Source: Escherichia phage vB_EcoM-Ro157lw | Sequence record: MH051335.1 | Reading direction: 5' to 3' (one strand) | DNA length: 64,000 nucleotides | Shown here: positions 3,185 through 64,000 of the stretch, piece after piece | How the letters are laid out: each line of letters opens with the position of its first letter | Numbering within the stretch: position 1 is the stretch's first letter | Made by a program: the position numbers and the translations under genes | Notes under the pieces: model-generated | The model's database searches: none | Told to the model about the DNA's origin: nothing | The model's input: only the letters and a program-made list of their open reading frames with translations

Positions 3185-3279
3185 TTCAATCTCCTTTCGT
3201 TTGGTTAACTAAAATATAACTCAAAATGATACAAAAGCAAAATATTTTATGAACTATTTATGATCACCATACATATCAT

Positions 3280-3308
3280 TTGCTTACAAACACATGAATA
3301 TTTATAAT
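3280..3308 (+). promoter_or_regulatory. sigma70-like promoter candidate (TTGCTT-17 nt-TATAAT) upstream of portal gene
   Basis: Hexamers and spacing read directly in a divergent intergenic region. Confidence 0.35.
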
Positions 3309-3346
3309 ATAGATTGATTCCCTTTCACTGTCAGGTGGCGTTAACA

Positions 3347-15361: not shown

Positions 15362-15829
15362 ATGATTAACGTTTCCGGTTTTGGCGCTTCGATTCGTTTA
15401 GTGGCATCAAACACTTTTCCAAATGGTGTAACTCTTTCTGATTTCGCAGATGATGCTGATCCGATTGACGCGCCTGATCTTCAAATCTCTGAAGCCGCAA
15501 TGGGGTTGAACGGTGACCTGGTAGTCTGGAACCGTGCCAACCCTCTTGAAGTAGGCGTCAACATCATCCCTACTTCTGAAAGCGATGTAAACTTAGATGT
15601 TCTGGCAGCGGCTAACCGTGTAGGCAAGCGCAAGAACTCTGCGAAAGACGTGATCACCCTTATTCTGACCTACCCTTCTGGCATGGTCATCACACTGAAC
15701 AAGGGAACTTTGACGACTGGTTCAGTGATTCCTGGCATCCAGTCTCAGGGTCGTGTAAAAACACGTCAATATCGCTTTAAGTTTGAGAACGTAGTCAAAA
15801 CTGGCGTGAGCAACCAAGAGATTTTATAA
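15362..15829 (+). CDS. tail tube protein
   Basis: 155 aa directly after the sheath; paralogous to 16780-17277. Confidence 0.5.
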   Translation: MINVSGFGASIRLVASNTFPNGVTLSDFADDADPIDAPDLQISEAAMGLNGDLVVWNRANPLEVGVNIIPTSESDVNLDVLAAANRVGKRKNSAKDVITLILTYPSGMVITLNKGTLTTGSVIPGIQSQGRVKTRQYRFKFENVVKTGVSNQEIL

Positions 15830-16779: not shown

Positions 16780-17277
16780 ATGGTCAATATTAGTGGATTT
16801 GGCACAAGCATTAGAATTGTCGCTCTCCAATCTTTTCCTGTTGGGCTGAATATCAGTTCTTTGTCTGATGACCAGGATTCGCTAATTATTGAGGAAGTTG
16901 AATCAGTAGGCTATCAACTTACTTATGACGGCGGCATTTGTATTTATGACAAGGCCGCCGTCGTTCGCGTATCCATTGCAGTGATCCCAAACACTGAAGA
17001 CGACATAAACCTAAAGCTTTTGCTTTCCGCTCGTAAAGGCGGATTCAAGTGGCTTCCTATACAGGATGTCACATCAATGCTTATTACATATCCTGATGGC
17101 GGCAGAGTAGCATTTTCGAACGGGACCATAATCAGCGGTCCGCTTGGCGACTCCATTGAGCAATCCGGTCGTCGTAAGACAAACAGATATACATTTGTGT
17201 TTGCCAGCTACGGCGGCGCACAGAGCACATCACAAATTGCAAAAGGCGTGGTGCAGAGCATATTGGGGTCAATTTAA
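16780..17277 (+). CDS. tail tube-like protein, paralog of 15362-15829
   Basis: N-terminus MVNISGFGTSIRIVALQSFPVGL aligns with MINVSGFGASIRLVASNTFPNGV of the upstream tube gene; similar length. Confidence 0.5.
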   Translation: MVNISGFGTSIRIVALQSFPVGLNISSLSDDQDSLIIEEVESVGYQLTYDGGICIYDKAAVVRVSIAVIPNTEDDINLKLLLSARKGGFKWLPIQDVTSMLITYPDGGRVAFSNGTIISGPLGDSIEQSGRRKTNRYTFVFASYGGAQSTSQIAKGVVQSILGSI

Positions 17278-17810
17278 TGGCTATCGATTTATTGTCATAT
17301 AGTCTTTCCAACAGAAGCTTCACAATAAGAAGCTTCAACCTTGGGGAAGTGTCAACGCTTGGTTGGGCGATTGTTAACGTTAAAATAAGACTCCAAGCAA
17401 AGATATTCAAGAACCAAAGGGAGGATGGAAGCTATATTGTCGATGGCAGGGTCAAAATGCCTAGAATATTGACTGTGACTGTAATAGCACAGACAAAAAG
17501 CGCGTCCGAAGCAATCGCAAAGATGCTGCAAAATAGGTCCACTATATACACAATAAATTCTCGTGGGCTAATATTTGAACGTATGGTGCTGCAAAATAAC
17601 AATTTCAGCCAAGATGCTGACAATATAACTTCACAACCCATACAACTGGTCTTCCACGAGATATTAACACAGCAGGATGTGTCTATTCAAACAGCGCAAG
17701 CAGCCGACTCCACTGTCATTGAGCGCGGCATCGCTTATATAAAAGAGACTACTGCCAGCGTCACTGGCGTTGCAACAAAGGTGATGAATGGCATCAAGGG
17801 GATGCTCTGA
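17277..17810 (+). CDS. hypothetical tail protein (177 aa)
   Basis: Gene order. Confidence 0.4.
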   Translation: MAIDLLSYSLSNRSFTIRSFNLGEVSTLGWAIVNVKIRLQAKIFKNQREDGSYIVDGRVKMPRILTVTVIAQTKSASEAIAKMLQNRSTIYTINSRGLIFERMVLQNNNFSQDADNITSQPIQLVFHEILTQQDVSIQTAQAADSTVIERGIAYIKETTASVTGVATKVMNGIKGML

Positions 17811-18370
17811 TGGACTTTGTTTCGATTCTGCTTTCTGGTCAATCTCTGACCATAACGAATGAGTCGACAGGGCTTCCTGTCTGGACAAGGCTTTCTCCAG
17901 TGTCTGCAGAAATAACATCACCAGCAGAAACTACTCAATTTCCACTTGCTGGAACGGCGATGCAGGTGGTGGAAGTATCAAGCACATCCTCAGTAAGTAA
18001 TTTACAGGCGGCAAAAGTAATAATGCCAGCGCACATGGCGCTAAACGTAATTTGCAACGACCAATCGACTATTGAAAACATAATTAATACATTCGACAAT
18101 GATGAAGTCACATTTTCAATAACTTCTCGAAGCATAATTGCAAGCAAAATGTCGATGTCTGATGTCGAAATAACTCAGTCAGAAGAAAACCTGAATGGAG
18201 TCTCAATTGTAATAACATTTGAACAGACGTCATTTAGTATTCAAGGAAGCTTTGACCCTAAACAGTCCGCAGATGAATCGTCAAATGGCGTGGCTATTAA
18301 AGAGCCAGTCAGTTTGACTACAACTGTGAGTTCGTTATATAATAAAATAAAATCAACAGTAGGAATATAA
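17810..18370 (+). CDS. hypothetical tail protein (186 aa)
   Basis: Gene order. Confidence 0.4.
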   Translation: MDFVSILLSGQSLTITNESTGLPVWTRLSPVSAEITSPAETTQFPLAGTAMQVVEVSSTSSVSNLQAAKVIMPAHMALNVICNDQSTIENIINTFDNDEVTFSITSRSIIASKMSMSDVEITQSEENLNGVSIVITFEQTSFSIQGSFDPKQSADESSNGVAIKEPVSLTTTVSSLYNKIKSTVGI

Positions 18371-36069: not shown

Positions 36070-36488
36070 GACAATTCCTCTAAATACTTGATGATGTGAT
36101 GGATGGACCCGCTCGCGGCGACCATATCCAAAATCTCACCCTTAGTATATTCTTTTAATCGCAATGAAGGGTGAACTAAATAATAAGCCTTTTCAGAATC
36201 TACCTTCAGCAGCACAAATGACGAGAACTTCCAATCATTCCAAGAAGTCAAAAAGCTTTGTTGGCCTTTCTCAAATGCACTTTTAAAAGGAAGAGTGGTG
36301 GCCCTTGCAGGCCACGATTCAAAAAACTTCATTTCAAGCCAAAAGCCGCGCCCTTTCCGGTTGGTGCCGATTACATCCGGCACACCATCACCCGTCATGG
36401 ATTCGATTCTTTGAAGCTTCAGTACTGATTCTGAATGCTTCTTCAAAGGAACGAAAATGTATTTTTGTTCACGGTTATTTGTTGCCAT
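36066..36488 (-). CDS. VRR-NUC domain nuclease (PD-(D/E)xK fold)
   Basis: GVPDVIG...GFWLEMK matches the D...E-x-K catalytic pattern; adjacent to SNF2 helicase. Confidence 0.55.
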   Translation of the reverse strand: MATNNREQKYIFVPLKKHSESVLKLQRIESMTGDGVPDVIGTNRKGRGFWLEMKFFESWPARATTLPFKSAFEKGQQSFLTSWNDWKFSSFVLLKVDSEKAYYLVHPSLRLKEYTKGEILDMVAASGSIHHIIKYLEELS

Positions 36489-37131
36489 CTGGATACACCT
36501 GTTTGATCACGTCGACTATAAACATGTCAATGCCTTCAAGCTTTCGACCTTTCATCAGGAAGAATGCACCGTTCCCGACGTTCTCTGCAATGTATTTCCC
36601 GTATTTCTGGAACTTCTCTGGACGAATCCTGAAGCGCATTGGCGAGTCGGTCGAGTCGTCCTTGCACATAAGGTCGATGAACTGAGTTTCAAGCTTGTTT
36701 CCATACTGATCAAACTCTGCGTAGCGGCCATCGGCCTGAAGACCCTTTTTAAGCTTGCCGTGCTTTGTATAAATGCCGCGCTCAAGACGTTTACGGATGC
36801 GTGTTGCTTCGTTCTCGTCAGCCAGCACTTTCTTGGTCAACTTGCCGATTACTATTGCACGCTCGTCATCGCCGACTTCCTTCATCTGACGTATTGAAGC
36901 ACCGGAAGTAACGCCAATCAGATAGGGGTCATTATACGCCCAGCCAAACTTGGTGTGCATCTCTGTAAGGTCGCCGTATTTGACTTCAGCATTGGCCAAT
37001 GCATCCTTTTGTTTTTGCGTTAAGGTTCCGGCTTCACGTGCTTCGATGTACTTCATCGCTTTCACCATTCCGTACCCTTTAGCGTTCATGATGCCGCCAA
37101 TTAGCTTTCCGTTAGCGATTGGCCAATGCAT
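36475..37131 (-). CDS. dnaE: DNA polymerase III alpha-like protein, C-terminal fragment (separated from the N-terminal ORF by a frameshifting 127-bp duplication)
   Basis: First 45 residues duplicate the last 45 residues of the upstream ORF 37112-39499; removing one copy of the duplication fuses both ORFs in frame. Confidence 0.6.
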   Translation of the reverse strand: MHWPIANGKLIGGIMNAKGYGMVKAMKYIEAREAGTLTQKQKDALANAEVKYGDLTEMHTKFGWAYNDPYLIGVTSGASIRQMKEVGDDERAIVIGKLTKKVLADENEATRIRKRLERGIYTKHGKLKKGLQADGRYAEFDQYGNKLETQFIDLMCKDDSTDSPMRFRIRPEKFQKYGKYIAENVGNGAFFLMKGRKLEGIDMFIVDVIKQVYPDGNK

Positions 37132-37246
37132 CCTTTTGTTTTTGCGTTAAGGTTCCGGCTTCACGTGCTTCGATGTACTTCATCGCTTTCACCATTCCGT
37201 ACCCTTTAGCGTTCATGATGCCGCCAATTAGCTTTCCGTTAGCGAT
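36991..37246. repeat. perfect tandem duplication, unit 127 bp (two copies, 36991-37117 and 37118-37244, identity extends 2 nt further)
   Basis: seq[i] equals seq[i+127] across the whole span, read directly; lies inside the polymerase coding region. Confidence 0.9.
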
Positions 37247-39499
37247 GGTCCAGTTCATTGAAGAGTGATCAGGGTCGATTGGCACATAATCCACGCCTTC
37301 CTTTGCAAGTTCACGTAATATCGCAATCGTCTGGTCTTCGTCCTTGGCAGCGCGTAAGCAAGCAGCGGCAAATTCCAACGGATAGTGTCGTTTAAGCCAC
37401 AAGGTCCAGTAGGTCACGACCGCGTATGATACGGAGTGTGACTTGTTAAATCCCCATGACCCGAACGTCGCCATTGCTTGCCAAAGCTTTCTTGCATCAG
37501 CTTCCGGTACGCCGTTATTTATTGCGCCTGCAACGAAGTCTTCGCCAAGCTTGTTAAAGTATTCCTCACCCTTACGGCCTGACATCGCCTTACGTACAGC
37601 GGATGTCTTCGCCCAGTCAAATGAACCAATCTCTTTAACCACGGCCATGATTTGCTCTTGGTAAAGAAACACGCCGTAAGTCTCTTTTAAGTACGGCTCA
37701 AGCTGCGGCACGTCGTACTCAATCGGCGCACGTCCTGCCGCGCGTTCGATGTATTTCTGGGCCATACCGGATGACAACGGGCCAGGTCGGCCAAGTGCTG
37801 TCAGGTTATCGATTTTGTTAAAGTTATCAACGTGCACAAAGTTGGTTACTGAGCGTACAGCGTCGCCTTCGAACTGGAAGATTCCTGACATCTTATTTTC
37901 GTTAAGGATGTCAAGGACGCTTTGATCATTGAGCTTGATTCCGTACAGTGTTTCAGCATCTATCACGCCAGTATCAGAAATGATGCCGAGGGTACGAAGG
38001 CCCAATGCATCAAGCTTCAAAAGGTTAAGGTATTCGCTGTCAGGCTTATCAATTTGTGCAATCCCTTCCGCCGTTACCGTACAGTAATCAGAGATTGGAT
38101 CATTACACACGATGATTCCCGCTGCGTGAACGCCAGTGTGGGAAGGGTGAATTTCAAGGTCACCCATGCATCGCGCGGCATCAGGATATTTAGCCACAAA
38201 CTCTTGGCCCGTGGTCGTTGTTGCAAAGGTGTCCTCCAGGCCGTGGCCATAACGGGCGTCACCGGATGAGTATTCAAGCAATGCGTTTTTAATGTTGGCC
38301 GTTTCGTGATATCCAATGTTGAATTTCTTACCAACCTGAGCCATTACTGAGTTGGCCTTAAGCGTGTTGATGTTGCCAAGCTTTGCAACGTTCATTTCGC
38401 CGTATTTTTCTTTAAGGTAATCAAACACCATATAGCGTTTGGTATCCTCAAAGTCAATATCAATATCAGGAAGGTCTGCGCGGCTTACGTCAATGAATCG
38501 GGCAAACAGTAGCTTATACGGGATTGGGTCAACTTCCGTGATGCCGAGGCAATAACAAACCAGTGAACCAGCCGATGAGCCGCGAGCGGGTCCGACGAGC
38601 ATTTTTGTTTTTGCGAATCGTACAAGGTCCGCTACCACCAGAAAGTATGAGTCGAAATCTTTCAGCTGAATCTGGTGAATCTCTTCGTTGAATCGGTCCT
38701 CATATTCCTGAGTCCATTCTTTGATGTGGCCTGCCTTAAGGCGGTACTCCATCCCCTCACGAGCAAGCTTTACCATGTCACCAGCAAGGTGGATAATCGG
38801 TGCCTTGCGCAGCTTCAGGTCAAGTCCCACGATTCCGTTTGCAATGTCAACTGCATTGGCCGTTGCTTGATTCAACTCATCTTCGGTCAATATTCCTTTA
38901 AGCTGTTTGCGCAAGTCTTCCGCGTCAACGATACAGTGCGGCTTGACCGTGTCGCGCACTTCCCAAGCATAAGCAAAGTCAACGTGCTCAGGTGAAGGCA
39001 TGTGGTTGTATCCGGTTAAAACCAGCGGCCTTCCGTTGCTGCGGTGAGCCAATACCTGGCGCTTGGCCAAAAGGAACGATGATGGGTTGACGTCTATATA
39101 ATCGTAGTCCTCTGGCCGCAGCAACTCCACGGCCCCGCCACAGAATTTAACGACGCCATCGAGCGCCCCGAACTCTGCACGGGTCAGTCCGCCGCGCTGT
39201 GTTGCAAGCGTGGTCGCGTTGTAAAAGGATTTCAGGTCAAGCGCCAATATCCAAGCCTTCGGTTTGAATCCCTTTTTCGGGTCCGCATCAGGGTCGATGA
39301 TTGGAATTTCCATGCCGAACATAGGCTTAATATCATTTTTCTGGCACTCCTTTTCCCATCGAACGTGACCCCATGTATTGTTATCAACTAATGCCGCGAC
39401 TTCGCAGCCCAACTCTTTGAGCCGTGCTATAATTTCAGGATGCCGTCCATATACTTCTTTGAACGTGTAACCGCTGCGAACTCTCAATTGTGGAAACAT
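37112..39499 (-). CDS. dnaE: DNA polymerase III alpha-like replicative polymerase (PHP plus polymerase core), N-terminal 795 aa
   Basis: N-terminal PHP-like domain and large polymerase core; TAATG overlap with the upstream exonuclease gene. Confidence 0.75.
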   Translation of the reverse strand: MFPQLRVRSGYTFKEVYGRHPEIIARLKELGCEVAALVDNNTWGHVRWEKECQKNDIKPMFGMEIPIIDPDADPKKGFKPKAWILALDLKSFYNATTLATQRGGLTRAEFGALDGVVKFCGGAVELLRPEDYDYIDVNPSSFLLAKRQVLAHRSNGRPLVLTGYNHMPSPEHVDFAYAWEVRDTVKPHCIVDAEDLRKQLKGILTEDELNQATANAVDIANGIVGLDLKLRKAPIIHLAGDMVKLAREGMEYRLKAGHIKEWTQEYEDRFNEEIHQIQLKDFDSYFLVVADLVRFAKTKMLVGPARGSSAGSLVCYCLGITEVDPIPYKLLFARFIDVSRADLPDIDIDFEDTKRYMVFDYLKEKYGEMNVAKLGNINTLKANSVMAQVGKKFNIGYHETANIKNALLEYSSGDARYGHGLEDTFATTTTGQEFVAKYPDAARCMGDLEIHPSHTGVHAAGIIVCNDPISDYCTVTAEGIAQIDKPDSEYLNLLKLDALGLRTLGIISDTGVIDAETLYGIKLNDQSVLDILNENKMSGIFQFEGDAVRSVTNFVHVDNFNKIDNLTALGRPGPLSSGMAQKYIERAAGRAPIEYDVPQLEPYLKETYGVFLYQEQIMAVVKEIGSFDWAKTSAVRKAMSGRKGEEYFNKLGEDFVAGAINNGVPEADARKLWQAMATFGSWGFNKSHSVSYAVVTYWTLWLKRHYPLEFAAACLRAAKDEDQTIAILRELAKEGVDYVPIDPDHSSMNWTIANGKLIGGIMNAKGYGMVKAMKYIEAREAGTLTQKQKDALANR

Positions 39500-50004: not shown

Positions 50005-51675
50005 ATGTCAATTGAACATGACAATCTTCCAGAGGATACAGGTGATGAATTTGGTGCAATCTTTGACGAAATTCAAGACGCTGGTGTTTCAGAAGAGATG
50101 CAAGCGGCAGAGCAGCAAGGCACCAGAGCTAAAATCAGCCTCCAGCATAAGGCTGTTGAGAAAGATGCAGAGCGCATGGAGTGCTACGGTGAAGAAGACT
50201 TGGTTGAAAGAGCACGTTTGCTCGCCTCACTTCAGGTAATCAAGTTCCCTCACTACAAACCGACGAAAGATGATTTTGTTCTTCAGGCGGACCGGACGAG
50301 TGACATGAACCGTTATGCGGTTTTCGACGCGTTGTTTGATAAGGGAAGCGGCATTGTCCCATTCCCTCACAAAGATACTTTTCGTGGACGCTTAGTCGAC
50401 CATCGCGGCGAAACATTCACCGACCGGACGTTGGAAGTCACAGAGATAGTTGCCGCTGTAGACGCAGCAGGTCTGTCCAACCCAAACTCACGTCAGGTCG
50501 CTCAATCCTATAAGGAATGGGCTATGCGTTATCAGCGCGACGACCTGATGGACTTCTTCTACAAGAAGCTGCCTGAATGGGACGGTACTGCGCGCATTGA
50601 AAAATACCTTATCGAGCTATTCCGACCGTTCGATACAGAGTTAAACCGACAAATCGGTGTGTATTTTTGGCTATCGCTCTATAACCGCCTGACCAATCCT
50701 GGCTGTCAAGCGCCAATCTCCATTGCGCTCATCGGCGGCCAGAACGCAGGGAAGAGTTATTTTAGTAAGCTGCTTTGCGAAGCTATTATGAACGACCGCC
50801 ACGCAACACCGATTCCGTTGAACTTGGCCGCGCAGAACTTCAACCCGTTCTTGCGAGCTATTACGGGTCGCTCAATTATCGCGAACGTTGGTGAGATGAC
50901 AGGCTTTAAAAAGGCCGACATCGAAAACATGAAAGCATTCCTGACTAAGACGGAAGATGACCTGGACTTCAAATTTGAAGATACGCAGGTTAAACCACGC
51001 CAGTGGATTGCTATCATGGACGGCAACGAATACGCAGGCATGCAGCGTGACGATACGGGCAACCGTCGTGTGTATCCTATCTTTGTTGGCCAACTCGCCG
51101 ACAAGGACGGGCAACCGAACTGGTCGAAAGACTTCCAAGCTGACCTTTCCACTTTGAAAGAAGACGTTTGGCAACTGATGGCTGAGTGTGCTGCGTGGAT
51201 GGAGAAGCACGGCGAAGCAGGTTACAACGCGTTTGTCGGTGAAACATCTCGCATGCTTACTGAGTTCAGCAAGAACGAAATGGAACGCGCTCGCGGCGTT
51301 ATCCGTGATGAGATGGTCGACAACGACCTTGTTGAAGTCGTCATCACCGCGCCTTATGACCGACATCACAGCGGACGCTGGCACATCACCAGTGGTGCAA
51401 TCGCTATGGGATTCAGAGCTAAGTGCGGCAAGTCGCCTTTCTCACGTACCCTTGCGCCGCACATGTCGAAGCTTGGATTTGAGCCTGCAACCTATCGCAA
51501 CCAGCGTGGCTACTTTACGCCGCTGATTAAGAATGAAGCAGGGGAATACATTTCTGACTTGATGACTATCTTAGCGTATCTTATCCGCGACGAGTCTGAC
51601 CCTGAAGATATTGAATTCTTGAAGAAGGTTATTGAACGCAAACGTTCTTTAGGAAGAGATAAGGATGAATTCTGA
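50005..51675 (+). CDS. VirE/D5-like P-loop NTPase (primase-associated helicase)
   Basis: Walker A LIGGQNAGKS; 556 aa; shortly downstream of the primase-polymerase candidate. Confidence 0.6.
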   Translation: MSIEHDNLPEDTGDEFGAIFDEIQDAGVSEEMQAAEQQGTRAKISLQHKAVEKDAERMECYGEEDLVERARLLASLQVIKFPHYKPTKDDFVLQADRTSDMNRYAVFDALFDKGSGIVPFPHKDTFRGRLVDHRGETFTDRTLEVTEIVAAVDAAGLSNPNSRQVAQSYKEWAMRYQRDDLMDFFYKKLPEWDGTARIEKYLIELFRPFDTELNRQIGVYFWLSLYNRLTNPGCQAPISIALIGGQNAGKSYFSKLLCEAIMNDRHATPIPLNLAAQNFNPFLRAITGRSIIANVGEMTGFKKADIENMKAFLTKTEDDLDFKFEDTQVKPRQWIAIMDGNEYAGMQRDDTGNRRVYPIFVGQLADKDGQPNWSKDFQADLSTLKEDVWQLMAECAAWMEKHGEAGYNAFVGETSRMLTEFSKNEMERARGVIRDEMVDNDLVEVVITAPYDRHHSGRWHITSGAIAMGFRAKCGKSPFSRTLAPHMSKLGFEPATYRNQRGYFTPLIKNEAGEYISDLMTILAYLIRDESDPEDIEFLKKVIERKRSLGRDKDEF

Positions 51676-54921: not shown

Positions 54922-54951
54922 TCAAAAAGGTGAGCTAAATGCTTGCCTTTT
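54922..54951 (+). repeat. 30-bp element TCAAAAAGGTGAGCTAAATGCTTGCCTTTT, copy 1
   Basis: Identical 30-mer recurs at 56462-56491; contains AAGGTGA plus ATG. Confidence 0.7.
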
Positions 54952-55003
54952 CTTTTATCAATACTTATACTCTTTTCATCAAGACTGACAAGCGAGGTGA
55001 ATT

Positions 55004-55321
55004 ATGATTTACTTAGGCATCGACAAGGAACAAGACGAGCGGTTAGGAAGCGTGTTAAACTTAGACTTGAACACAGCTGTACACACCAAGCCTTGGCCAG
55101 AGGCGCACCCCGACGTAGTTGTACCCGTTGCACCTTGGGCGCGTTACGTTGCCATTGACGATAACGGCCTTGTCCATTGTTATTCAGAAAGGCCAACGTA
55201 TTTCGAGCTTCACCGCGAATGGCTGATGACTGGATGGGCAAAGGTGCGCTGCTGCGGCGAAGTCGGTCTGGAAGGATGGGGATTCAAGGCTAGTGAATCG
55301 TGTGTCGAGGTGCAATTATGA
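55004..55321 (+). CDS. hypothetical protein (105 aa)
   Basis: RBS GAGGTG. Confidence 0.4.
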   Translation: MIYLGIDKEQDERLGSVLNLDLNTAVHTKPWPEAHPDVVVPVAPWARYVAIDDNGLVHCYSERPTYFELHREWLMTGWAKVRCCGEVGLEGWGFKASESCVEVQL

Positions 55322-55536
55322 ATGCCGCGCTGGGTAAGTTGTCTTTTAACAAGCGCAATGAGTTGCGCATGGTGTCTCGTTTTCAGTTTTTATTAAATGC
55401 TATGTCAAGCGTTGCCATAACAATGCTTCGCGCCGATTGCCCTGCTGAAAAGCGTGAGACTTTATTTGAACGTCATAAACAATTACAAAAGGCTGCGTTT
55501 AAGCTGCAGCAATACGCTATGGAGTATGCAAAATGA
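55318..55536 (+). CDS. hypothetical protein (72 aa)
   Basis: Overlapping stop/start. Confidence 0.4.
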   Translation: MNAALGKLSFNKRNELRMVSRFQFLLNAMSSVAITMLRADCPAEKRETLFERHKQLQKAAFKLQQYAMEYAK

Positions 55537-55817
55537 AGGTGCAACGCTGCCCACATTGCTTGTTAACTATGCGACTTCCTGTTGAAGAATATTTACATCA
55601 CGTTAATGTTTGTGAAGCTAATCCTGAAAATTCGACGCGTTACTATTATCACTATCACGCAGAAGCGGAAGATGGATCAGGCGCAACAGGAATCGTTACC
55701 ACGAAAGAAATGGTTATCACCAAAAAGGCGTATGAAAGCCTGCTGGATACAATAAAGGAAGTATCTGGAAAAGAAATAATCTGCATCAAATCTTTGTCTT
55801 TCTTACACGAGGTGTAA
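55533..55817 (+). CDS. small zinc-finger-like protein (CPHC...H...C)
   Basis: N-terminus MKVQRCPHCLLTMRLPVEEYLHHVNVCEANPEN; paralog of the next gene. Confidence 0.45.
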   Translation: MKVQRCPHCLLTMRLPVEEYLHHVNVCEANPENSTRYYYHYHAEAEDGSGATGIVTTKEMVITKKAYESLLDTIKEVSGKEIICIKSLSFLHEV

Positions 55818-55818
55818 A

Positions 55819-56202
55819 ATGAGAATGAAACGTTGTCCGTATTGCCACGATGTGATGCATCTTCCGCATGAAGAGTTCGTGCAGCACATGGCTAATTGCG
55901 ATAAGAATCCTAATAGCGAGAGTCAGCTTGAAGAAAGAATGTTCTTGGTGTCATTCAAGTATTCAGCTTACGATACACAGCCTGCTTATGGTGCACAAAG
56001 TGCTGCTTACAGACCGATGACATTGAGAAGTGACATTGACTCGATGCAGCTTGCGGCCTGGATTAACGTTAAGGAAGGCATCACATGGCACTTTATCGCG
56101 CGCATCCAATCCCAGATTCTACAAATCAAGCGCGAATACAACCGTGACATCACTGAAGTGAAGGTGCTTTCCATTACGCCGATGAATAAGGAGTTGCCGT
56201 GA
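55819..56202 (+). CDS. small zinc-finger-like protein (CPYC...H...C), tandem paralog
   Basis: N-terminus MRMKRCPYCHDVMHLPHEEFVQHMANCDKNPNS aligns residue-by-residue with the previous ORF. Confidence 0.45.
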   Translation: MRMKRCPYCHDVMHLPHEEFVQHMANCDKNPNSESQLEERMFLVSFKYSAYDTQPAYGAQSAAYRPMTLRSDIDSMQLAAWINVKEGITWHFIARIQSQILQIKREYNRDITEVKVLSITPMNKELP

Positions 56203-56513
56203 ACAAGGGTCCGATGACTAAGCTGGCCGTTGCCGCGCGGAAGCTTCGACAAGCCGTTAATGGGTCGCGGCCCGTGGTGTTAACACTCGACGATGCAAAG
56301 GCACTGGTAGAGCTACTCGACGAGCACAACCGACGCAAGAATCTGGAGAACACATTACGCTGGCGCGTCACCCCCAGCAGGGCGGGAGAGCGAGAAGAAA
56401 GCTTACTTGCGACGCAAACTAAGGTCGGTCGGCCTCCACGAAGAGGCGAAGAAGATTTGATTCAAAAAGGTGAGCTAAATGCTTGCCTTTTTATTTGCCT
56501 GTATTATACTTAG
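56199..56513 (+). CDS. hypothetical protein (104 aa); 3' end runs through the 30-bp repeat
   Basis: ORF in six-frame track; true stop uncertain. Confidence 0.3.
   Translation: MNKGPMTKLAVAARKLRQAVNGSRPVVLTLDDAKALVELLDEHNRRKNLENTLRWRVTPSRAGEREESLLATQTKVGRPPRRGEEDLIQKGELNACLFICLYYT
56462..56491 (+). repeat. 30-bp element TCAAAAAGGTGAGCTAAATGCTTGCCTTTT, copy 2
   Basis: Identical to 54922-54951. Confidence 0.7.
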
Positions 56514-56538
56514 TTCATCAAGCAAAGGAGATTTGATT

Positions 56539-56844
56539 ATGAGTACCGAAGCAATGAAGAAAAAGGTTTTGAACGCTTTGCAAGAAGCCGTGAATTGTGG
56601 TGCTATTAAAGCCTTCAAGGAGACTCAAGAAGGCGGTGAGCCAGTATTCTTCTTCAAGAATAAAAAGGACGGCGTTGCAGCAATCATGCTGTTAAAGAAT
56701 AGTGCTGACACATTTATCCTTTGCGTCGGAGGGTATGACCTTATCGTTAATGATGTATTTATCAATTGTGCCGACGGCCTTGACCCTATGTTGACATTTG
56801 AGCGTCGCGCCATCCGTGTTGCGACATTTGGAGGGAAGTTATGA
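56539..56844 (+). CDS. hypothetical protein (101 aa)
   Basis: Strong RBS AAAGGAG before ATG 56539; N-terminal region related to N-terminus of 57301-57804. Confidence 0.4.
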   Translation: MSTEAMKKKVLNALQEAVNCGAIKAFKETQEGGEPVFFFKNKKDGVAAIMLLKNSADTFILCVGGYDLIVNDVFINCADGLDPMLTFERRAIRVATFGGKL

Positions 56845-57134
56845 GACTAAGCCTAGCGCAAATTCAAACATTGTACCGAATGGAAGACGGCACGCCATAC
56901 ATGCTGCGCGGCGACCGCAAGAAGGCTTATGAAAAGCGGCCATCACTGTTCCACGACATCAATGCGCCATCAATCCCTGTCTTATTCCGGTTGGGCCTTG
57001 TTGATTGGGCGGTGCCAGGAGAGAAAGACCCGACGCGCTATTCATCCGTGGTGATGACAAAAGCAGGTCGCGCGGCATTAAAAGAAATTAAAGAGAATAT
57101 GACTGGAGGTAAATATTATGACATCCAACCTTAA
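56841..57134 (+). CDS. hypothetical protein (97 aa)
   Basis: Overlapping stop/start. Confidence 0.4.
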   Translation: MRLSLAQIQTLYRMEDGTPYMLRGDRKKAYEKRPSLFHDINAPSIPVLFRLGLVDWAVPGEKDPTRYSSVVMTKAGRAALKEIKENMTGGKYYDIQP

Positions 57135-57282
57135 AGCCCGTTTATTATTCACCAAGCCGCATGTGCCGTATAAGATTAGCAAGCGCACCTGGCTTAACAT
57201 TTACAACCGCAGCGGCGACCGTTGTTTGTACAAGGCAAAGCGGCGCAAGAAGGTATATTCTTACACGACATCCATCAAATAA
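57118..57282 (+). CDS. small basic protein (54 aa)
   Basis: RBS GGAGG before ATG 57118; Lys/Arg-rich. Confidence 0.3.
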   Translation: MTSNLKARLLFTKPHVPYKISKRTWLNIYNRSGDRCLYKAKRRKKVYSYTTSIK

Positions 57283-57300
57283 GACTAGGAGAAGACAACA

Positions 57301-57804
57301 ATGAAAATCGAACAACTCGAAGCAGTATTGGAAATGGCCGTAAAGGCAGGCGCAATCAAAAGCTATCGCCGCGAGAAGTCTGAGGGTGTTGCGCACTTTT
57401 GTCGCAACTTCTATATCGTCGGCAACCTTAACGACCACTACACCATCGAGTGGTATATCAATATCATGACACTTAAGTCGCGCACCATGGAGCTTTGGTG
57501 CGATGACATCTGCTTATCTAAAACCAATCCATCCTACGACGTTGCATTGGCATTCTATTACGGAAGCCGTCAGCCTGTCGCCCACATAGGCGAGAAGCAT
57601 GAGCATCTTAAGGCACGACCAGAGGAATCAATGGAAGGCTGGATTGAATGGGCTGGAGGAAAGAATCCGGTGCCTGGTAAGAAGGTCATGCTGATGTGGA
57701 GGAATGAAGCAAAGTCGTCGTATTCGTCCAATTCAGAGGGATGGCTATGGCAGCACAACGGAAGCGTTTATGACATCATTGCATATCGCGTCGTGGAGGA
57801 ATAA
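57301..57804 (+). CDS. hypothetical protein (167 aa) sharing C-terminal domain with 59007-59432
   Basis: C-terminus ...W..WAGGKNP..G..V...DIIAYRVVEE aligns with ...WFGGDNPAAGEMV...DIIAYRVVKEG. Confidence 0.45.
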   Translation: MKIEQLEAVLEMAVKAGAIKSYRREKSEGVAHFCRNFYIVGNLNDHYTIEWYINIMTLKSRTMELWCDDICLSKTNPSYDVALAFYYGSRQPVAHIGEKHEHLKARPEESMEGWIEWAGGKNPVPGKKVMLMWRNEAKSSYSSNSEGWLWQHNGSVYDIIAYRVVEE

Positions 57805-58145
57805 TGGAAGAGCAAGAAGGCCGTGAGCTAACTTTCGACGAGCAAATGAAAGAGCTTCAGCGCACATCGCCGCTGCGCGGTAAGGTTATTGACATCGAGG
57901 CGAGCGACTCCAATCTCACCCAGTGGCGTCTCAAATGCATCAGCACAAGCAAGGATATGTTAAGCTTCAAAGTCGGTCAGACTTATTTGCTTTATGAGGC
58001 AAAAGGACTTATTATTGATGGAAGGCAAATTGTCTTCACGGTCGTCAACGGGATGCGTTGGTTCGTGAAGCGTGATGTCGAGGGTCGTGACATGTTTGTC
58101 GCAGGCTTTCCAGAAGCAAGATTCCAATTGGAGAAGGTTAAATGA
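57804..58145 (+). CDS. hypothetical protein (113 aa)
   Basis: Overlapping start. Confidence 0.4.
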   Translation: MEEQEGRELTFDEQMKELQRTSPLRGKVIDIEASDSNLTQWRLKCISTSKDMLSFKVGQTYLLYEAKGLIIDGRQIVFTVVNGMRWFVKRDVEGRDMFVAGFPEARFQLEKVK

Positions 58146-58460
58146 AAACTCTTCACTTGCATGCGCAATCGCTTGCATCTAAGTTTGGATTCATGGACGG
58201 TGACATCGTGTCACTTTTCTGTGAAGAAATAATATTGAATCAGAATTAAAAGATAAGGACTCGCACGACGTTTTAATCAAATTAGTAAGGAAGCACCTTT
58301 TGCCTTTGGTGAGTCATGTTAAGGTATTTGAAATATTAACGATGCACAACCCGATACGCTGTGAAGATGACTTCATTGATGAGATGCGTCACAGCGATGT
58401 TCAAGTTGAAGTGGGCCTTGAAGAAGTGTTACAGTGCATTAAAGAAACGGAGAAATTCGA

Positions 58461-58793
58461 ATGAAATTGAAATGGTACGTGGACCCTGAGCCAACAGGCC
58501 AATACAGGTCATTCCAACGTCGCGGCTGGCCGACTTGTTACAGCGGCAATCCCGATAAAGAAGATTGCGAGCTTCTCGCGCAAATCGTAAGCCTCGACCA
58601 TCACGGCTATGAAGGCCACTACGCGAGAGCAACCAACCTTCGGCTCAAGGTGCGCATCCATTTCAAGGTCGCAGGCGAGGACCGCACCGGACTCTCCAAG
58701 GAAGAGTTCAGCAGCATCGCCGAAGCAAAGGCATGGCTCAAGGCATTCTATAAGAACAACCCTAAATTCTATCCAACTAAGGATGCATCATGA
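58461..58793 (+). CDS. hypothetical protein (110 aa)
   Basis: ORF in early operon. Confidence 0.4.
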   Translation: MKLKWYVDPEPTGQYRSFQRRGWPTCYSGNPDKEDCELLAQIVSLDHHGYEGHYARATNLRLKVRIHFKVAGEDRTGLSKEEFSSIAEAKAWLKAFYKNNPKFYPTKDAS

Positions 58794-59023
58794 CCGATAA
58801 ACAATACGCAGTCGGGCAGCGTGACATCGAGCAACTCGACGAGGGCGGCTATTATACGCGCCACATCTTTGCCATGACGCATGAAGGACTTTACAGCAAG
58901 TCGGACATCGCCGCTGAACTGGCCCACCGTGACTTGCAAATTGACATGTTGCGTATCGCTCTTGAAAAGCAAACGCAAATCGCTATTGAAATTTTGGAGA
59001 AGTTAAATGATACAACGTTATGA
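58790..59023 (+). CDS. hypothetical protein (77 aa)
   Basis: Overlapping start. Confidence 0.4.
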   Translation: MTDKQYAVGQRDIEQLDEGGYYTRHIFAMTHEGLYSKSDIAAELAHRDLQIDMLRIALEKQTQIAIEILEKLNDTTL

Positions 59024-59432
59024 CCTGACATACGATGTGGCGACAGAAGATTTCGACATCACTCCTGTTCCAGAAAGTCACGAAGGACGTTTTGTTGCAT
59101 ATGAGGACTATGCCGCGCTGGAAGCGAAATGCAGTGAAGCGCAACGCGAGTTGGTTGCATTACGCTCACAGGTCCGTGATGCGTCGGCGCTCGTTAAGCA
59201 GTTGCATGACGTTGTTGCTACTATAGGCGTGGATGTTGATGCGCCGAAGGAGGAAGCGTGGACCGTGTGGTTTGGTGGCGATAATCCGGCGGCTGGGGAA
59301 ATGGTTGAATACAAGCTGCGCAATGGAGGAGATAAAGTGCTGTCAAGAATCTCCGACCATCTTCACTGGGGTCATATAGGCGCGTTAAAGGGCAGCGACA
59401 TCATTGCTTATCGGGTCGTTAAGGAGGGGTGA
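59007..59432 (+). CDS. hypothetical protein (141 aa), C-terminal domain paralogous to 57301-57804
   Basis: Shared C-terminal block ending DIIAYRVV. Confidence 0.45.
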   Translation: MIQRYDLTYDVATEDFDITPVPESHEGRFVAYEDYAALEAKCSEAQRELVALRSQVRDASALVKQLHDVVATIGVDVDAPKEEAWTVWFGGDNPAAGEMVEYKLRNGGDKVLSRISDHLHWGHIGALKGSDIIAYRVVKEG

Positions 59433-59968
59433 TGGGTGGCTTTTGGCGTAAATCAAAATACTCTAAAGAGTTGCATTACTTTCTTAAGGGTGAAGGCATA
59501 AGCATTTGCGGAAGATATAAAATGGATGGCAATTCAAATTTGCAAAGTGACAAGAAGACTCACTGGCTGCTCAAGGAAGAGTGCCATGTTTGCCGCGAAA
59601 GGCTAGACAAGAAAACGAAAATGGTCGACTACATAAAGGAGCTTCAAAGCAGGTGCAAAAGTCCGCAGGAGTTCGCCATTGCTCTTTGGGATGATCACCC
59701 TGAATTAAGAAAGGAATGGTTAAAGACTGACGCAATCAACTCTATATTTAAAATGAAATACAGGACCACTGCAAGATATAAAATGGATAGCAAAATAATT
59801 CAGAAGGTATTTTCTTATTGGAGGGATACAGTTGATATCGTGAAAATAAAGAAATACCAAAAGGAAGTGCTGCTGGAATTGGAAAGGATTGGCTATAAAG
59901 TCACCAATAAAATGATAGAGGGAGAGATAAAAAGACGGGCTGACAAAGGATTTATGCCTAAATTATAG
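59429..59968 (+). CDS. hypothetical protein (179 aa) with Cys/His pairs near the N-terminus
   Basis: CGRYK...CHVCRERL; Lys-rich. Confidence 0.4.
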   Translation: MMGGFWRKSKYSKELHYFLKGEGISICGRYKMDGNSNLQSDKKTHWLLKEECHVCRERLDKKTKMVDYIKELQSRCKSPQEFAIALWDDHPELRKEWLKTDAINSIFKMKYRTTARYKMDSKIIQKVFSYWRDTVDIVKIKKYQKEVLLELERIGYKVTNKMIEGEIKRRADKGFMPKL

Positions 59969-60240
59969 TGGATAAAAGAACAATTGTTTACGTGTTTTGA
60001 ATAATGGGATGTGTACAATGGGTCGCTTTACGCGGCCTTTTGTTGTTTTGGTCGTGTTTCTTGATGGAATAATTATGAGGCGATGTTTTATTTATTAATT
60101 GTGCGGAAATATTTAGAAATATATATAAACAGGATTGTTAATATTTTAATAGCGTATGACTATTGGTCCGTGGTGTTTGTTAGGAATTATCTATGGATTG
60201 AAATTTTAGTGTCGTGAAACGTGGTGTTTGAACACATTTG

Positions 60241-60600: not shown

Positions 60601-60826
60601 TCAACCAGCCAGCAGCGGCTAAGTCATTGATTTGCATAACACGCGGCGAAAGGGATGGATTTCTTTTATACGTATCAAACAGTACACCAAGCACCACGGT
60701 CCGCTATTCATTAAGCATTGTGATTTATGTACGTTTACAGCCAATTTGAACATCAATCTGCACTTGAATATAATGTTCAATCATTGTATAATTCACACTA
60801 TTAATTTGCACTATGGGATTTGCACT

Positions 60827-61300
60827 ATGAGTCAAGATTATGTAGCAATGCCTGAAGACTTTGAAGACCCGCGATTTGCAGAGCATAATCAGGCATTATT
60901 CGATGAGTTCATTGACCTTGTTATTCAGGGCCATGACATGCGCGCAGCTTTTGCACTAGTATTTGGCATGGAGGTTGCGACCGATAACTACACTGGCCAG
61001 CGAATCCTCTGCACGCAACGCAATCCGTACTACAAGATGCGCTACAAAAAGCGTATGGAAGAGATGCCATTGAAGGAATTGTGGAGCGTAAAGAGTTCCA
61101 TCCACAATTTAGTGAAGCTTGTGCGTGATCCAGAAGTCGCGGCATCAGCCAAGCTTAATGCCATTCGTGAACTGAATATCATCTACGGCATTACGATGAT
61201 TGATGAAAACGGCAATAGTAAAATGGGCCGTTCCATGGATGATTTCTACAAGGATTTTGGAGAGGCGGCCAAAGAGGGTGAGCAATTCTCCCGCCACTAG
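60827..61300 (+). CDS. hypothetical protein (157 aa); start codon lies inside an ATTTGCACTATG motif
   Basis: ATG 60827 in frame of ORF 60632-61300; no conventional RBS spacing. Confidence 0.4.
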   Translation: MSQDYVAMPEDFEDPRFAEHNQALFDEFIDLVIQGHDMRAAFALVFGMEVATDNYTGQRILCTQRNPYYKMRYKKRMEEMPLKELWSVKSSIHNLVKLVRDPEVAASAKLNAIRELNIIYGITMIDENGNSKMGRSMDDFYKDFGEAAKEGEQFSRH

Positions 61301-61319
61301 CCAATTTGCACTATAAAAC

Positions 61320-61353
61320 GGCCCTAGAACACATTTTCTCCACTTCTAGGGCC
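61320..61353 (+). other. stem-loop GGCCCTAGA...TCTAGGGCC (9-bp stem, 16-nt loop)
   Basis: Perfect inverted repeat directly after the stop at 61300; no U-tract. Confidence 0.3.
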
Positions 61354-61728
61354 ATCGGTAATACGACGGGGAAGGCTGCAACCATAAACGCGTTAGAAAG
61401 TGTATTATTATAAGTCATCTTTTAGTCACTTTACGTAACAATTTACGACCTTCAGCCGTCCAGTCGAACGACTCCACCAGCAGATTTGCACTATAACCTA
61501 AGACGATGCGCCCTTTCTCGTTATCAACCCGCCAACAAGTCTCGAATAGCATTCGATTTGCACTATTAACTATCGCCGCAGCGCGCGTTGGGTAAGCGCA
61601 ATTTGCACTATGGTCGTAAAGGGATAAGGTGCGACCACTTCCGATGGACAACGTAGCGATGAGAATAAGCGTATTCATAAGCCACCAATTTGCACTATGA
61701 AAAGCGACCCCGAAGGGCCGCCATTCGA

Positions 61729-62355: not shown

Positions 62356-62496
62356 AATAAACTCCTAGTTTGGGAGCGGCGTTAACGACCTATTCGCTAA
62401 CTCATCCCGTCCCGATATGAGTACATTATAATATAGTGTAGAAAAAAGTAAAGCACTTTTTCGATAAAAATGCGATAAATTATTTTATCTTTTTTC

Positions 62497-62524
62497 TTTA
62501 CTTCTTCGTACACTCGCGTATACT
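62497..62524 (+). promoter_or_regulatory. sigma70-like promoter (TTTACT-16 nt-TATACT), copy 1 of a duplicated promoter-leader module
   Basis: Shares TTCGTACACT spacer core and downstream TTTATATCGAGA with the copy at 62894-62922. Confidence 0.4.
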
Positions 62525-62579
62525 TGTTTATATCGAGACGGGCGATGGCCTTCCTTCTACTAGCATCGGGAGCTTTATT

Positions 62580-62882: not shown

Positions 62883-62893
62883 CGAAAAAGTGC

Positions 62894-62922
62894 TTTACTT
62901 ATTCGTACACTAAGACTATAAT
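62894..62922 (+). promoter_or_regulatory. sigma70-like promoter (TTTACT-17 nt-TATAAT), copy 2
   Basis: Hexamers read directly; same flanking sequence as copy 1. Confidence 0.4.
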
Positions 62923-62989
62923 GTTTTATATCGAGAGGGGATGAGGTAGCGAATAGGTCGCTACCCTCCCGACTAACTAGGAGAATATT

Positions 62990-63280
62990 ATGATTACTTT
63001 ATCCGCTATCCGTTCCGCTCGCGTCGAAACTTCCGAAAACTCTAACGTATTTGGCGAAACCTTAGAGAGCGTTTATCTCTCTAACGTAGACGCGATTATC
63101 GAGTCTATTTATGAGCCGATCAACTTTCTCGACCTTTACAAGTATCGCGACGAGGACATCGTATCCTACCGCGTAACGATTAACGGCTTCGTCTATACGA
63201 TTACCGAAATCGGCGGCGAATATATCGCTGTACCGCAACTCGGCGGCGAAGTAACTTACTTTAAAATCGTAAGCCTTTAA
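62990..63280 (+). CDS. hypothetical protein (96 aa)
   Basis: RBS AGGAG; same leader architecture as 62580-62882. Confidence 0.45.
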   Translation: MITLSAIRSARVETSENSNVFGETLESVYLSNVDAIIESIYEPINFLDLYKYRDEDIVSYRVTINGFVYTITEIGGEYIAVPQLGGEVTYFKIVSL

Positions 63281-63671: not shown

Positions 63672-63745
63672 TCGCGTAAGTCGTTGTTTTATATAGACAC
63701 CTATATCGGAACGTTAAGGCGGGTCGCGTAAGTCGTTGTTTTATA
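63672..63745 (+). repeat. two direct copies of TCGCGTAAGTCGTTGTTTTATA spaced 52 bp apart in a non-coding stretch
   Basis: Copies at 63672-63693 and 63724-63745; a further direct repeat AATCATTCGCTTTC occurs at 63871 and 63916. Confidence 0.6.
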
Positions 63746-64000
63746 AAGGCGCAAAACTTTCCCTTCGTTCCGAACTAAAACGAGAAATATGCCGACCCTT
63801 CGCCCGAAAATAGTACGCATGCGAAATTACCGACATCTAGAATAATCCCCACCGATATTATTCTGCGCGCAATCATTCGCTTTCGAACTATTATGCTTCA
63901 TATTATTATGCGTCGAATCATTCGCTTTCTAATTGTAACGCTGGAAACTGTAACGGCGATTGATTATTGCGTTCGTGTGGTTTTTAGGGCATGGGTCTTT

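What the first reader, a model, noticed from the sequence alone, without database searches (positions are those of the whole stretch)
55533..59432. Tandem zinc-finger paralogs and domain shuffling among small early proteins
ORFs 55533-55817 and 55819-56202 share an N-terminal C-P-[HY]-C...H...C motif. ORF 57301-57804 shares its N-terminal segment with 56539-56844 and its C-terminal block (W..W.GG.NP..G...DIIAYRVV) with 59007-59432. This mosaic pattern is typical of fast-evolving host-takeover or anti-defence genes.
Basis: seen in the sequence. Interest (0 to 1): 0.5.

Follow-up and report, generated by a model that had tools for sequence, protein, structure and literature searches.

The report
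Shuffled protein modules in phage accessory genes
A run of small genes of unknown function in an E. coli phage really does swap protein modules, including a common but unnamed 57-residue domain with a hypervariable centre, but what these genes do is still untested.

Summary
The window is a Wifcevirus-type E. coli myophage. Two of the three claimed similarities are real. ORFs 55533 and 55819 share a 35-residue N-terminal C2HC zinc finger (profile E=5.6e-11) but nothing else. ORFs 57301 and 59007 share a 57-residue C-terminal block (E=5e-11). The third claim (57301 N-terminus vs 56539) is only suggestive (BLASTP E=2.3; profile P=0.004).

The C-terminal block is an autonomous small beta domain (AlphaFold pLDDT 89.5). 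It has no Pfam, NCBIfam or PDB counterpart, yet 11,901 cluster representatives carry it. It occurs alone, in tandem arrays, or fused to nucleotide-hydrolase, SaV-like or winged-helix modules, mostly in phages and in prophage early operons.

Within Wifcevirus its frame is conserved while its central ~29 residues form about 11 divergent cassettes (mean identity 0.47, against 0.90 for the attached N-domain). These cassettes move between phages and between the two loci. One relative carries a 57301/59007 hybrid gene made by a ~1.6-kb deletion with its crossover inside the conserved frame. There is no DGR signature.

The "early", "host-takeover" and "anti-defence" labels are plausible but untested.

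The parts
54922..54971 (+). Terminator hairpin plus TTGCCT-17-TATACT promoter-like cassette, copy 1. It marks the start of the transcription block that holds the zinc-finger genes.
   Evidence: 35-nt direct repeat, 94% identical to 56462-56496. Terminator-like and promoter-like scan hits. Sequence read. Terminators are annotated at the same positions in WFH and WFC.
55533..55817 (+). Short zinc-finger protein, 94 aa. The C2HC finger module is aa 1-35 (55533-55637). The remainder is unrelated to the neighbouring gene.
   Evidence: Present in only 5 of 13 compared Wifcevirus genomes, and in about 12 of 28 phage records.
55819..56202 (+). Long zinc-finger protein, 127 aa. The C2HC finger is aa 1-35 (55819-55923), followed by a predicted beta-beta-alpha-beta unit.
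   Evidence: AlphaFold2: finger is beta-beta-alpha with pLDDT 82-89, whole model pLDDT 69. Present in all 28 Wifcevirus records and nowhere else in the phage collection. No PDB match.
56462..56510 (+). Terminator plus promoter-like cassette, copy 2. It marks the start of the block holding 56539 to 58145.
   Evidence: Its translation (MLAFLFACIILSSSSKG..) produced a spurious 'similarity' between whichever genes follow it in different phages.
56539..56844 (+). 101-aa protein of unknown function. The true start is 56539, not the upstream TTG/ATG at 56479.
   Evidence: Its relation to the 57301 N-domain is only suggestive.
57301..57612 (+). N-domain of the 57301 protein (aa 1-104), equal to the complete phrog_21861.
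   Evidence: PHROG E=5.1e-52 over profile positions 1-104 of 104. Stand-alone 108-aa forms occur in AV128 and Mansfield. Mean aa identity 0.90 and pN/pS 0.19 across the genus.
57634..57804 (+). C-block copy 1 (aa 112-167 of the 57301 protein, plus stop codon). The hypervariable centre is aa 129-157 (57685-57771).
57804..58793 (+). Genes lying between the two C-blocks: 57804-58145 (113 aa), the frameshifted f52 homolog at 58142-58464, and 58461-58793 (110 aa). Together with 58790 they are deleted in the natural hybrid phage.
58790..59023 (+). 77-aa module protein. It recurs as the C-terminal part of a 163-166-aa protein (f45) and as the N-terminal part of a 130-aa protein (f84) in relatives.
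59007..59252 (+). N-module (aa 1-35) and coiled coil (aa 36-80) of the 59007 protein, plus two linker residues. Both parts are exchangeable.
   Evidence: The N-module is shared at 52-65% identity with ~44-kb siphophages (Kagunavirus Shashou, XY1, NTEC3, Pectobacterium phages). Alternative N-terminal and coiled-coil types occur in all combinations within the genus.
59253..59432 (+). C-block copy 2 (aa 83-141 of the 59007 protein, plus stop codon).
   Evidence: The 3' frame DNA is 86% identical to copy 1 over 29 nt (repeat D9).

Best explanation
SHOWN. The region is part of a ~10-kb rightward array of about 30 small accessory genes. The array lies between the primase/helicase gene (50005-51675) and the terminal-repeat region of a Wifcevirus genome, and a repeated terminator-promoter cassette cuts it into blocks. 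Genes in the array are assembled from exchangeable modules.

(a) A 35-residue C2HC beta-beta-alpha zinc finger heads two adjacent genes whose other parts are unrelated.

(b) A 57-residue acidic beta-rich domain (the 'C-block': [DE]GW[IT].W.GG.NP.PG..V...[RL].G...W.H...DI[IV]AYRV[VI]) ends two genes about 1.6 kb apart. This domain belongs to a very large unannotated phage and prophage family. It occurs alone, in tandem arrays of 2-8 copies, or fused to other modules.

(c) In Wifcevirus the frame of the C-block is under purifying selection, while the central ~29 residues exist as about 11 old, highly diverged cassettes. Homologous recombination at the conserved frame DNA moves these cassettes between phages and between the two loci, and can delete everything in between.

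INFERRED. The C-block is a protein-recognition module: a constant scaffold carrying a variable binding surface. It would tether whatever it is fused to onto a variable partner, either a host factor or a host defence component. In this window the fused parts are the phrog_21861 domain in 57301 and a dimerising coiled coil plus a small N-module in 59007. The cassette polymorphism would then be maintained by diversifying or balancing selection from that partner. The zinc-finger proteins are likewise small binding or regulatory factors. Expression from sigma70-like promoters soon after infection is likely but not shown.
For: Genome identity and array layout. Repeated terminator/promoter cassette. 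Zinc-finger module. C-block homology.

Autonomous domain: stand-alone proteins of 57-70 aa, a confident AlphaFold2 model with pLDDT 89.5 and pTM 0.74, and 35 structural matches among predicted viral proteins.

Family size and tandem copies: 11,901 representatives at E<=1e-3, and the top 150 hold 2-8 copies each.

Fusion partners: DUF3310/SaV-like, DUF6378, dGTP_diPhyd_N, HD, winged helix, coiled coil, Zn-ribbon.

Variable centre inside a conserved frame: aa identity 0.47 against 0.84-0.90, pS 0.62 against 0.29-0.37, pN/pS 0.57 against 0.19-0.24.

Exchange between loci and deletion-fusion, with the crossover mapped inside the frame.

Acidic character, which favours protein binding over nucleic-acid binding: median net charge -3.5, median pI 5.0.

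Early-operon context in prophages, next to NinX, near Lar, and downstream of a CI-like repressor.

Literature: Wifceviruses resist nearly all tested defence systems with no known mechanism. DUF3310 partners are early, host-toxic proteins.
Against: There is no direct functional evidence for any of these proteins, and no binding partner is known. pN/pS in the variable centre is below 1 (0.57) and synonymous sites are near saturation, so positive selection is not demonstrated. The pattern could equally reflect relaxed constraint combined with recombination among old alleles. Natural loss of the C-block from 57301 (AV128, Mansfield) and the natural deletion of 3-4 genes show these parts are dispensable, at least on some hosts. 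Expression timing is unknown. The zinc-finger model is of moderate quality (pLDDT 69) and zinc binding is assumed from the ligand pattern alone.
Confidence: 0.5

Rival explanations
1. The C-block is a nucleotide- or nucleic-acid-associated regulatory domain that works in phage nucleotide metabolism or replication, not a protein-recognition or counter-defence module. It would sense or bind nucleotides or DNA and modulate the enzymes it is fused to.
For: Among the top 150 family members the recurrent partners are nucleotide-metabolism modules: DUF3310 in 7, dGTP_diPhyd_N in 6, DUF6378 in 6, dATP-dGTP_PPHyd in 1 and HD in 1. A few have winged-helix domains. DUF3310 has been linked to the T7 gp1.7 nucleotide kinase. 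In the window the array lies directly downstream of the primase/helicase gene.
Confidence: 0.2
2. The mosaicism is a largely neutral by-product of frequent recombination among dispensable accessory genes. The C-block would be a generic folding, stability or oligomerisation tail, and its central variability would reflect relaxed constraint rather than any specificity.
For: The C-block and neighbouring genes are lost naturally. One gene in the block is frameshifted in this window. pN/pS in the centre is 0.57, not above 1. Gene content of the array varies throughout the genus.
Against: The frame residues are nearly invariant across about 12,000 clusters from distant bacteria and phages, and the cassettes remain intact ORFs of fixed length class. 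The variable centres fall into discrete types that persist across phages and are not a continuum of decay. Tandem multiplication of up to 8 copies suggests avidity or multivalent binding rather than a passive tail.
Confidence: 0.25
3. The variable centre is produced by a diversity-generating retroelement or another targeted hypermutation process, with one C-block copy serving as template for the other.
For: Two copies of the same domain lie 1.6 kb apart in direct orientation, with conserved ends and variable centres.
Against: The two copies are only 56% identical at the DNA level, and mismatches are not biased to adenines (24 A, 22 G, 20 T, 15 C). Synonymous divergence is as high as non-synonymous divergence would predict for old alleles. 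Identical cassettes recur in different phages. I did not scan the window for a reverse transcriptase.
Confidence: 0.01
4. The similarities are chance matches between short, compositionally biased ORFs.
For: The third claimed pair (57301-N vs 56539) is indeed not significant.
Against: The other two pairs have E values between 1e-8 and 1e-23 by BLASTP and by profile comparison. They are supported by thousands of homologs and by a confident common fold.
Confidence: 0.01

Closest known systems
Mosaic accessory ('moron', nin- or ea-type) gene arrays of tailed phages
   Same: Runs of small non-essential genes with variable content between close relatives. They are bounded by their own terminators and promoters and are assembled from modules shared with unrelated phages. 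Stand-alone C-block genes lie in exactly such prophage regions, next to NinX, near Lar, and downstream of a CI-like repressor.
   Different: Here the exchange unit is smaller than a gene. It is a ~29-residue cassette inside a conserved 57-residue domain, and two copies in one genome recombine with each other.
Receptor-binding-domain cassette exchange in phage tail fibres
   Same: A conserved frame flanks highly diverged, horizontally exchanged specificity segments. The BASEL study describes this for the Wifcevirus tail fibres themselves.
   Different: The C-block proteins are small, acidic and non-structural by position in the genome. No virion role is indicated.
SaV / DUF3310 early proteins (lactococcal phage SaV, T7 gp1.7-related)
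   Same: Some C-block family members are fused to DUF3310/SaV-like domains. SaV is an early, host-toxic protein that triggers the AbiV defence, and DUF3310 genes are cytotoxic early-region genes in mycobacteriophage screens.
   Different: The window's proteins contain no DUF3310. The link is through shared architecture in other proteins only.
DGR variable proteins
   Same: A constant scaffold with a hypervariable patch.
   Different: No adenine-specific mutation pattern and no near-identical template repeat. The variation is discrete old alleles.
Classical C2HC beta-beta-alpha zinc fingers, e.g. the UBZ4/NEMO-type CCHC pattern (recalled from memory, used as a lead only)
   Same: Ligand pattern C-x2-C-x13-H-x3-C and a predicted beta-beta-alpha topology.
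   Different: No Pfam zinc-finger family is matched. The only hit is a weak one to DUF7501, E=0.007, below its cut-off. There is no PDB match.

Membership tests
C2HC beta-beta-alpha zinc finger (generic class) | Four metal ligands (Cys, Cys, His, Cys) at conserved spacing | tested here: met
   C6, C9, H23 and C27 are invariant in 30 sequences of both paralog families.
C2HC beta-beta-alpha zinc finger (generic class) | Beta-hairpin followed by a helix that carries the His and Cys ligands | tested here: met
   The AlphaFold2 model has strands at residues 4-5 and 12-13 and a helix at 17-26, with pLDDT 82-89 in that segment. This is a prediction only.
C2HC beta-beta-alpha zinc finger (generic class) | Zinc is actually bound | not testable with these tools
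   Needs metal analysis of purified protein.
Any curated zinc-finger family (Pfam) | Match above the family gathering score | tested here: not met
   The only hit is DUF7501 at 17 bits against a cut-off of 27, E=0.007, for 55819. There is no hit for 55533.
PHROG phrog_21861 (unknown function) | Full-length match to the profile | tested here: met
   57301 aa 1-104 matches profile positions 1-104 of 104, E=5.1e-52.
PHROGs that contain the C-block (phrog_9174, 26870, 16943, 11995) | Significant match of the C-block to part of the profile | tested here: met
   E values from 2.3e-13 to 1.7e-5 for 57301, and from 3.4e-10 to 5e-4 for 59007, at different profile positions.
Pfam or NCBIfam family covering the C-block | Any model matching the domain | tested here: not met
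   No family matched the window proteins, the 106 aligned members, the domain itself in the top 150 representatives, or NCBIfam.
DUF3310 / SaV-like | Presence of the DUF3310 domain | tested here: not met
   Absent from the window proteins. Present only in some other C-block-bearing proteins.
Diversity-generating retroelement target | Template and variable repeats nearly identical except at adenines | tested here: not met
   56% DNA identity between copies, with mismatches spread over all four bases.
Early (pre-replicative) phage genes | Transcription in the first minutes of infection | not testable with these tools
   I found no transcriptome for Wifcevirus. There are only promoter-like consensus matches.
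Known anti-defence proteins | Homology to a characterised anti-defence family | not testable with these tools
   No anti-defence library is available. The PHROG annotations are all 'unknown function'. PADLOC, which covers defence systems rather than counter-defence, gives no hit.

The most novel reading that the evidence does not exclude
The C-block is a general-purpose, evolvable binding scaffold of phages. It would be a constant 57-residue beta frame presenting a swappable ~29-residue specificity cassette. Phages would use it alone, in multivalent tandem arrays, or fused to effectors, to recognise and neutralise variable host defence or host-takeover targets. The cassette repertoire of Wifceviruses would then contribute to their unexplained resistance to nearly all tested defence systems.
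Probability: 0.15. Interest if true: 0.75.

Novelty: new member of a known kind. Interest (0 to 1): 0.4.

Why it matters
Mosaic accessory genes are a familiar feature of phages, so the phenomenon itself is ordinary. Three things add value.

First, a domain family with about 12,000 representative clusters, a confident predicted fold and no Pfam, NCBIfam or PDB counterpart deserves a name and a structure.

Second, its conserved frame, variable cassette, and documented recombination within a gene, between loci, and as a natural deletion-fusion give an unusually clean example of sub-gene module exchange outside tail fibres.

Third, Wifceviruses replicate extremely fast and resist almost all tested E. 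coli defence systems by unknown means (PMC11990801). That makes these variable small proteins rational first candidates for deletion, cassette-swap and pull-down experiments on the BASEL strains.

Tried and rejected
1. An apparent N-terminal similarity between families f25/f81 and the 56479 ORF came from translating the shared untranslated leader of the terminator-promoter cassette. I rejected it as an ORF-extension artefact.

2. ORF 62990-63280 as a third C-block copy (BLASTP E=0.06): rejected. The HMM gives E=0.23 over 11 columns.

3. P0082 as a hybrid of the two zinc-finger paralogs: rejected. It is 53% and 44% identical to the two, so it is simply a third finger variant.

4. DGR-type hypermutation: rejected.

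5. Sub-threshold PDB sequence hits of the C-block profile to YdiL and Aca2 (E=0.28 and 0.5): rejected. They match only a W..W..G..P string inside helical HTH proteins, whereas the C-block is predicted to be all-beta.

7. The fold search of the zinc-finger model gave only noise, E>=1.1.

8. The AFDB50 Foldseek library was unavailable.

9. Ead/Ea22-like and DUF551 families, recalled from memory as possible relatives: no Pfam hit.

10. The first two large-database searches returned only Wifcevirus orthologs because of the word-index limit. Distant relatives appeared only after I built a diverse domain alignment.


Full report
IDENTITY AND CONTEXT. The window is a Wifcevirus-type E. coli myophage. 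Nucleotides 55000-60000 match 28 phage records, all of them Wifcevirus, with FEC19 the best at 93% identity over 82% of the query. In every relative all genes in this stretch are annotated 'hypothetical protein'. The finding lies inside a rightward array of about 30 small ORFs. The array runs from the primase/P-loop ATPase gene (50005-51675) to about 60.0 kb, and is followed by the region that corresponds to the ~3.7-kb terminal repeat reported for WFC and WFH. A 35-nt cassette recurs at 54922 and 56462 at 94% identity. It is a terminator hairpin followed by a TTGCCT-16/17-TATACT promoter-like element, and it divides the array into blocks. WFH and WFC have terminators annotated at the same places. 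All five ORFs named in the finding exist and have Shine-Dalgarno motifs.

CHECK OF THE OBSERVATION. Pair 1 (55533/55819): BLASTP E=4e-10 over 36 residues, E~6e-8 against all ~100 window ORFs, and family-profile HHalign probability 97%, E=5.6e-11. The homology stops at residue 35, and the remaining 59 and 92 residues are not detectably related. The invariant residues give the pattern C-P-x-C-x13-H-x3-C. AlphaFold2 predicts a beta-beta-alpha finger with pLDDT 82-89, followed in the long protein by a less confident beta-beta-alpha-beta unit; the whole model has pLDDT 69. Pair 2 (57301/59007 C-termini): E=5e-11, and up to 54% identity with E=1.9e-23 between orthologs in other phages. Pair 3 (57301 N-terminus vs 56539): BLASTP E=2.3. 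The profile-profile comparison gives P=0.0036, probability 9%, and 67 colinear columns. This is above all 200 column shuffles but is equalled by 1 of 17 unrelated control families. Pair 3 is therefore suggestive, not established. Two of the three claims are confirmed.

THE ZINC-FINGER GENES. The long protein is present in all 28 Wifcevirus records and in no other phage in the collection. The short one is present in only 5 of the 13 genomes I compared in detail. No curated zinc-finger family is matched; the only hit is DUF7501, below its threshold. There is no PDB relative by sequence or by fold. The accurate description is a shared finger module on two otherwise unrelated adjacent genes, one of which is optional.

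SHUFFLING WITHIN THE GENUS. I compared 13 genomes.

(i) AV128 and Mansfield carry the 57301 N-domain alone, as a 108-aa protein 97% identical to the fused form.

(ii) The 59007 family combines at least three N-terminal types, two coiled-coil types and many C-block variants, in different combinations.

(iii) The 77-aa 58790 protein recurs as part of 163-166-aa and 130-aa proteins.

(iv) The C-block has a near-constant frame around about 11 discrete central cassette types.

The quantitative picture for the 57301 family is as follows. The N-domain has aa identity 0.90 and pN/pS 0.19. The frames have identity 0.84-0.89 and pN/pS about 0.23. The centre has identity 0.47 (minimum 0.17), pS 0.62 and pN/pS 0.57. 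High synonymous divergence together with discrete recurring types points to old alleles moved by recombination, not to recent in-place mutation. The two copies in the window are 56% identical at the DNA level with no adenine bias among mismatches, which excludes a DGR-like mechanism.

DIRECT EVIDENCE OF RECOMBINATION BETWEEN THE TWO COPIES. P0021 has a 57301-type N-domain (93% identical) but a 59007-type cassette. Its centre is 93-97% identical to 59007-locus cassettes and 25% identical to the window's 57301 centre, and it keeps the locus-specific KEG tail. In its genome the hybrid gene is followed directly by the homolog of the gene that follows 59007. Homologs of 57804, f52, 58461 and 58790 are absent. 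The DNA alignment places the crossover inside the conserved 5' frame, at ..GGCTGGATTGAATGG | ..GGCGGCGAGAATCCGG... This is a ~1.6-kb deletion-fusion between direct-repeat C-blocks. It is seen in two independent samples, an NCBI assembly contig of 66,358 bp and a Logan run. Separately, the 59007-locus cassettes of WFH and Mansfield are closer to 57301-locus cassettes (67% and 60%) than to any other 59007-locus cassette (43% and 40%), even though both loci are intact in those phages. That indicates older exchange between the loci.

INTERPRETATION. Shown: module shuffling at the domain and sub-domain level, a conserved scaffold with a variable centre, and dispensability of several parts. Inferred: the C-block is a protein-recognition module whose cassette sets its specificity and which tethers whatever it is fused to. 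The zinc-finger proteins are small binding or regulatory factors. The array is probably transcribed by host RNA polymerase early in infection. Three literature points make a role in host takeover or counter-defence plausible. SaV/DUF3310 partners are early and host-toxic. [quoted passage not shown] And they replicate exceptionally fast. None of this tests these particular genes. The main rivals are a role in nucleotide or replication regulation, suggested by the fusion partners, and largely neutral mosaicism of dispensable genes.

NOVELTY AND SCORE. Mosaic accessory genes are a known kind of thing, and this is a new and well-documented member. The extra element is a very large domain family without annotation or structural precedent, with a cassette-exchange behaviour normally associated with tail fibres. 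Interest is moderate at 0.4. It would rise substantially if cassette-specific targets were found.

Noticed in passing
window 36991-37244 (- strand genes 37112-39499 and 36475-37131): A perfect 127-nt tandem duplication (36991-37117 = 37118-37244, 100% identical). It repeats 47 residues and, because 127 is not a multiple of 3, splits what is probably one long gene into two ORFs. The length equals the largest SPAdes k-mer, so it may be an untrimmed circular-contig overlap left inside a rotated assembly rather than biology.
   Followed up: partly
window 58142-58464: The homolog of FEC19's 107-aa gene (family f52) has a 1-nt deletion after about 58226 (GAAGAAAACAAT becomes GAAG-AAATAAT). This splits it into a 35-aa and a 54-aa ORF. 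It is either a pseudogene or a sequencing error.
   Followed up: yes
window 54922-54956 and 56462-56496: A repeated terminator-hairpin plus promoter-like cassette (94% identical) partitions the small-gene array. Its translation creates false N-terminal similarity between whichever ORFs follow it in different phages.
   Followed up: yes
window 60808-61702: Five to six copies of a GATTTGCACTAT(A/G)A motif, spaced about 70-490 nt apart, in the region that corresponds to the terminal repeat of WFC and WFH. They could be operator or iteron-like sites, or phage-specific promoter elements.
   Followed up: no
window 62496-62542 and 62893-62940; also 63672-63748 and 63855-63942: Duplicated strong sigma70-like promoter units (TTTACT-17-TATAAT followed by TATATCGAGA.GGG) lie upstream of ORFs 62580 and 62990. 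There are two further pairs of closely spaced direct repeats near the window end. These are likely the true immediate-early promoters near the genome terminus.
   Followed up: no
window 15362-15829 vs 16780-17277; 17277-17810 vs 17810-18370: Two pairs of paralogous structural-module proteins (33% identity over 143 aa, E=2e-30; and 27% over 118 aa, E=2e-6) turned up in the all-against-all comparison.
   Followed up: no
window 59007-59111; locus L018 (Kagunavirus Shashou) 3113-3576: The N-terminal 'M[IV]QRY[DE]...G.[FY]V.YEDY..LEA' module of the 59007 protein is shared at 52-65% identity with ~44-kb siphophages of E. coli, Enterobacter and Pectobacterium. It occurs twice in tandem in Shashou (gp66 and gp67). 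It is another travelling module of unknown function.
   Followed up: partly
window 58787-58825 vs 51013-51051: The first 39 nt of the 58790 gene (MTDKQYAVGQRD) are 77% identical to an internal segment of the primase/helicase gene (MDGNEYAGMQRD). This may be chance, or a small piece of captured sequence.
   Followed up: no
window 56199-56513: This ORF shares its first 60 residues (98% identity) with the 86-aa family f16 of the relatives, then diverges and reads through into the terminator cassette. It is a C-terminal replacement or frameshift variant.
   Followed up: no
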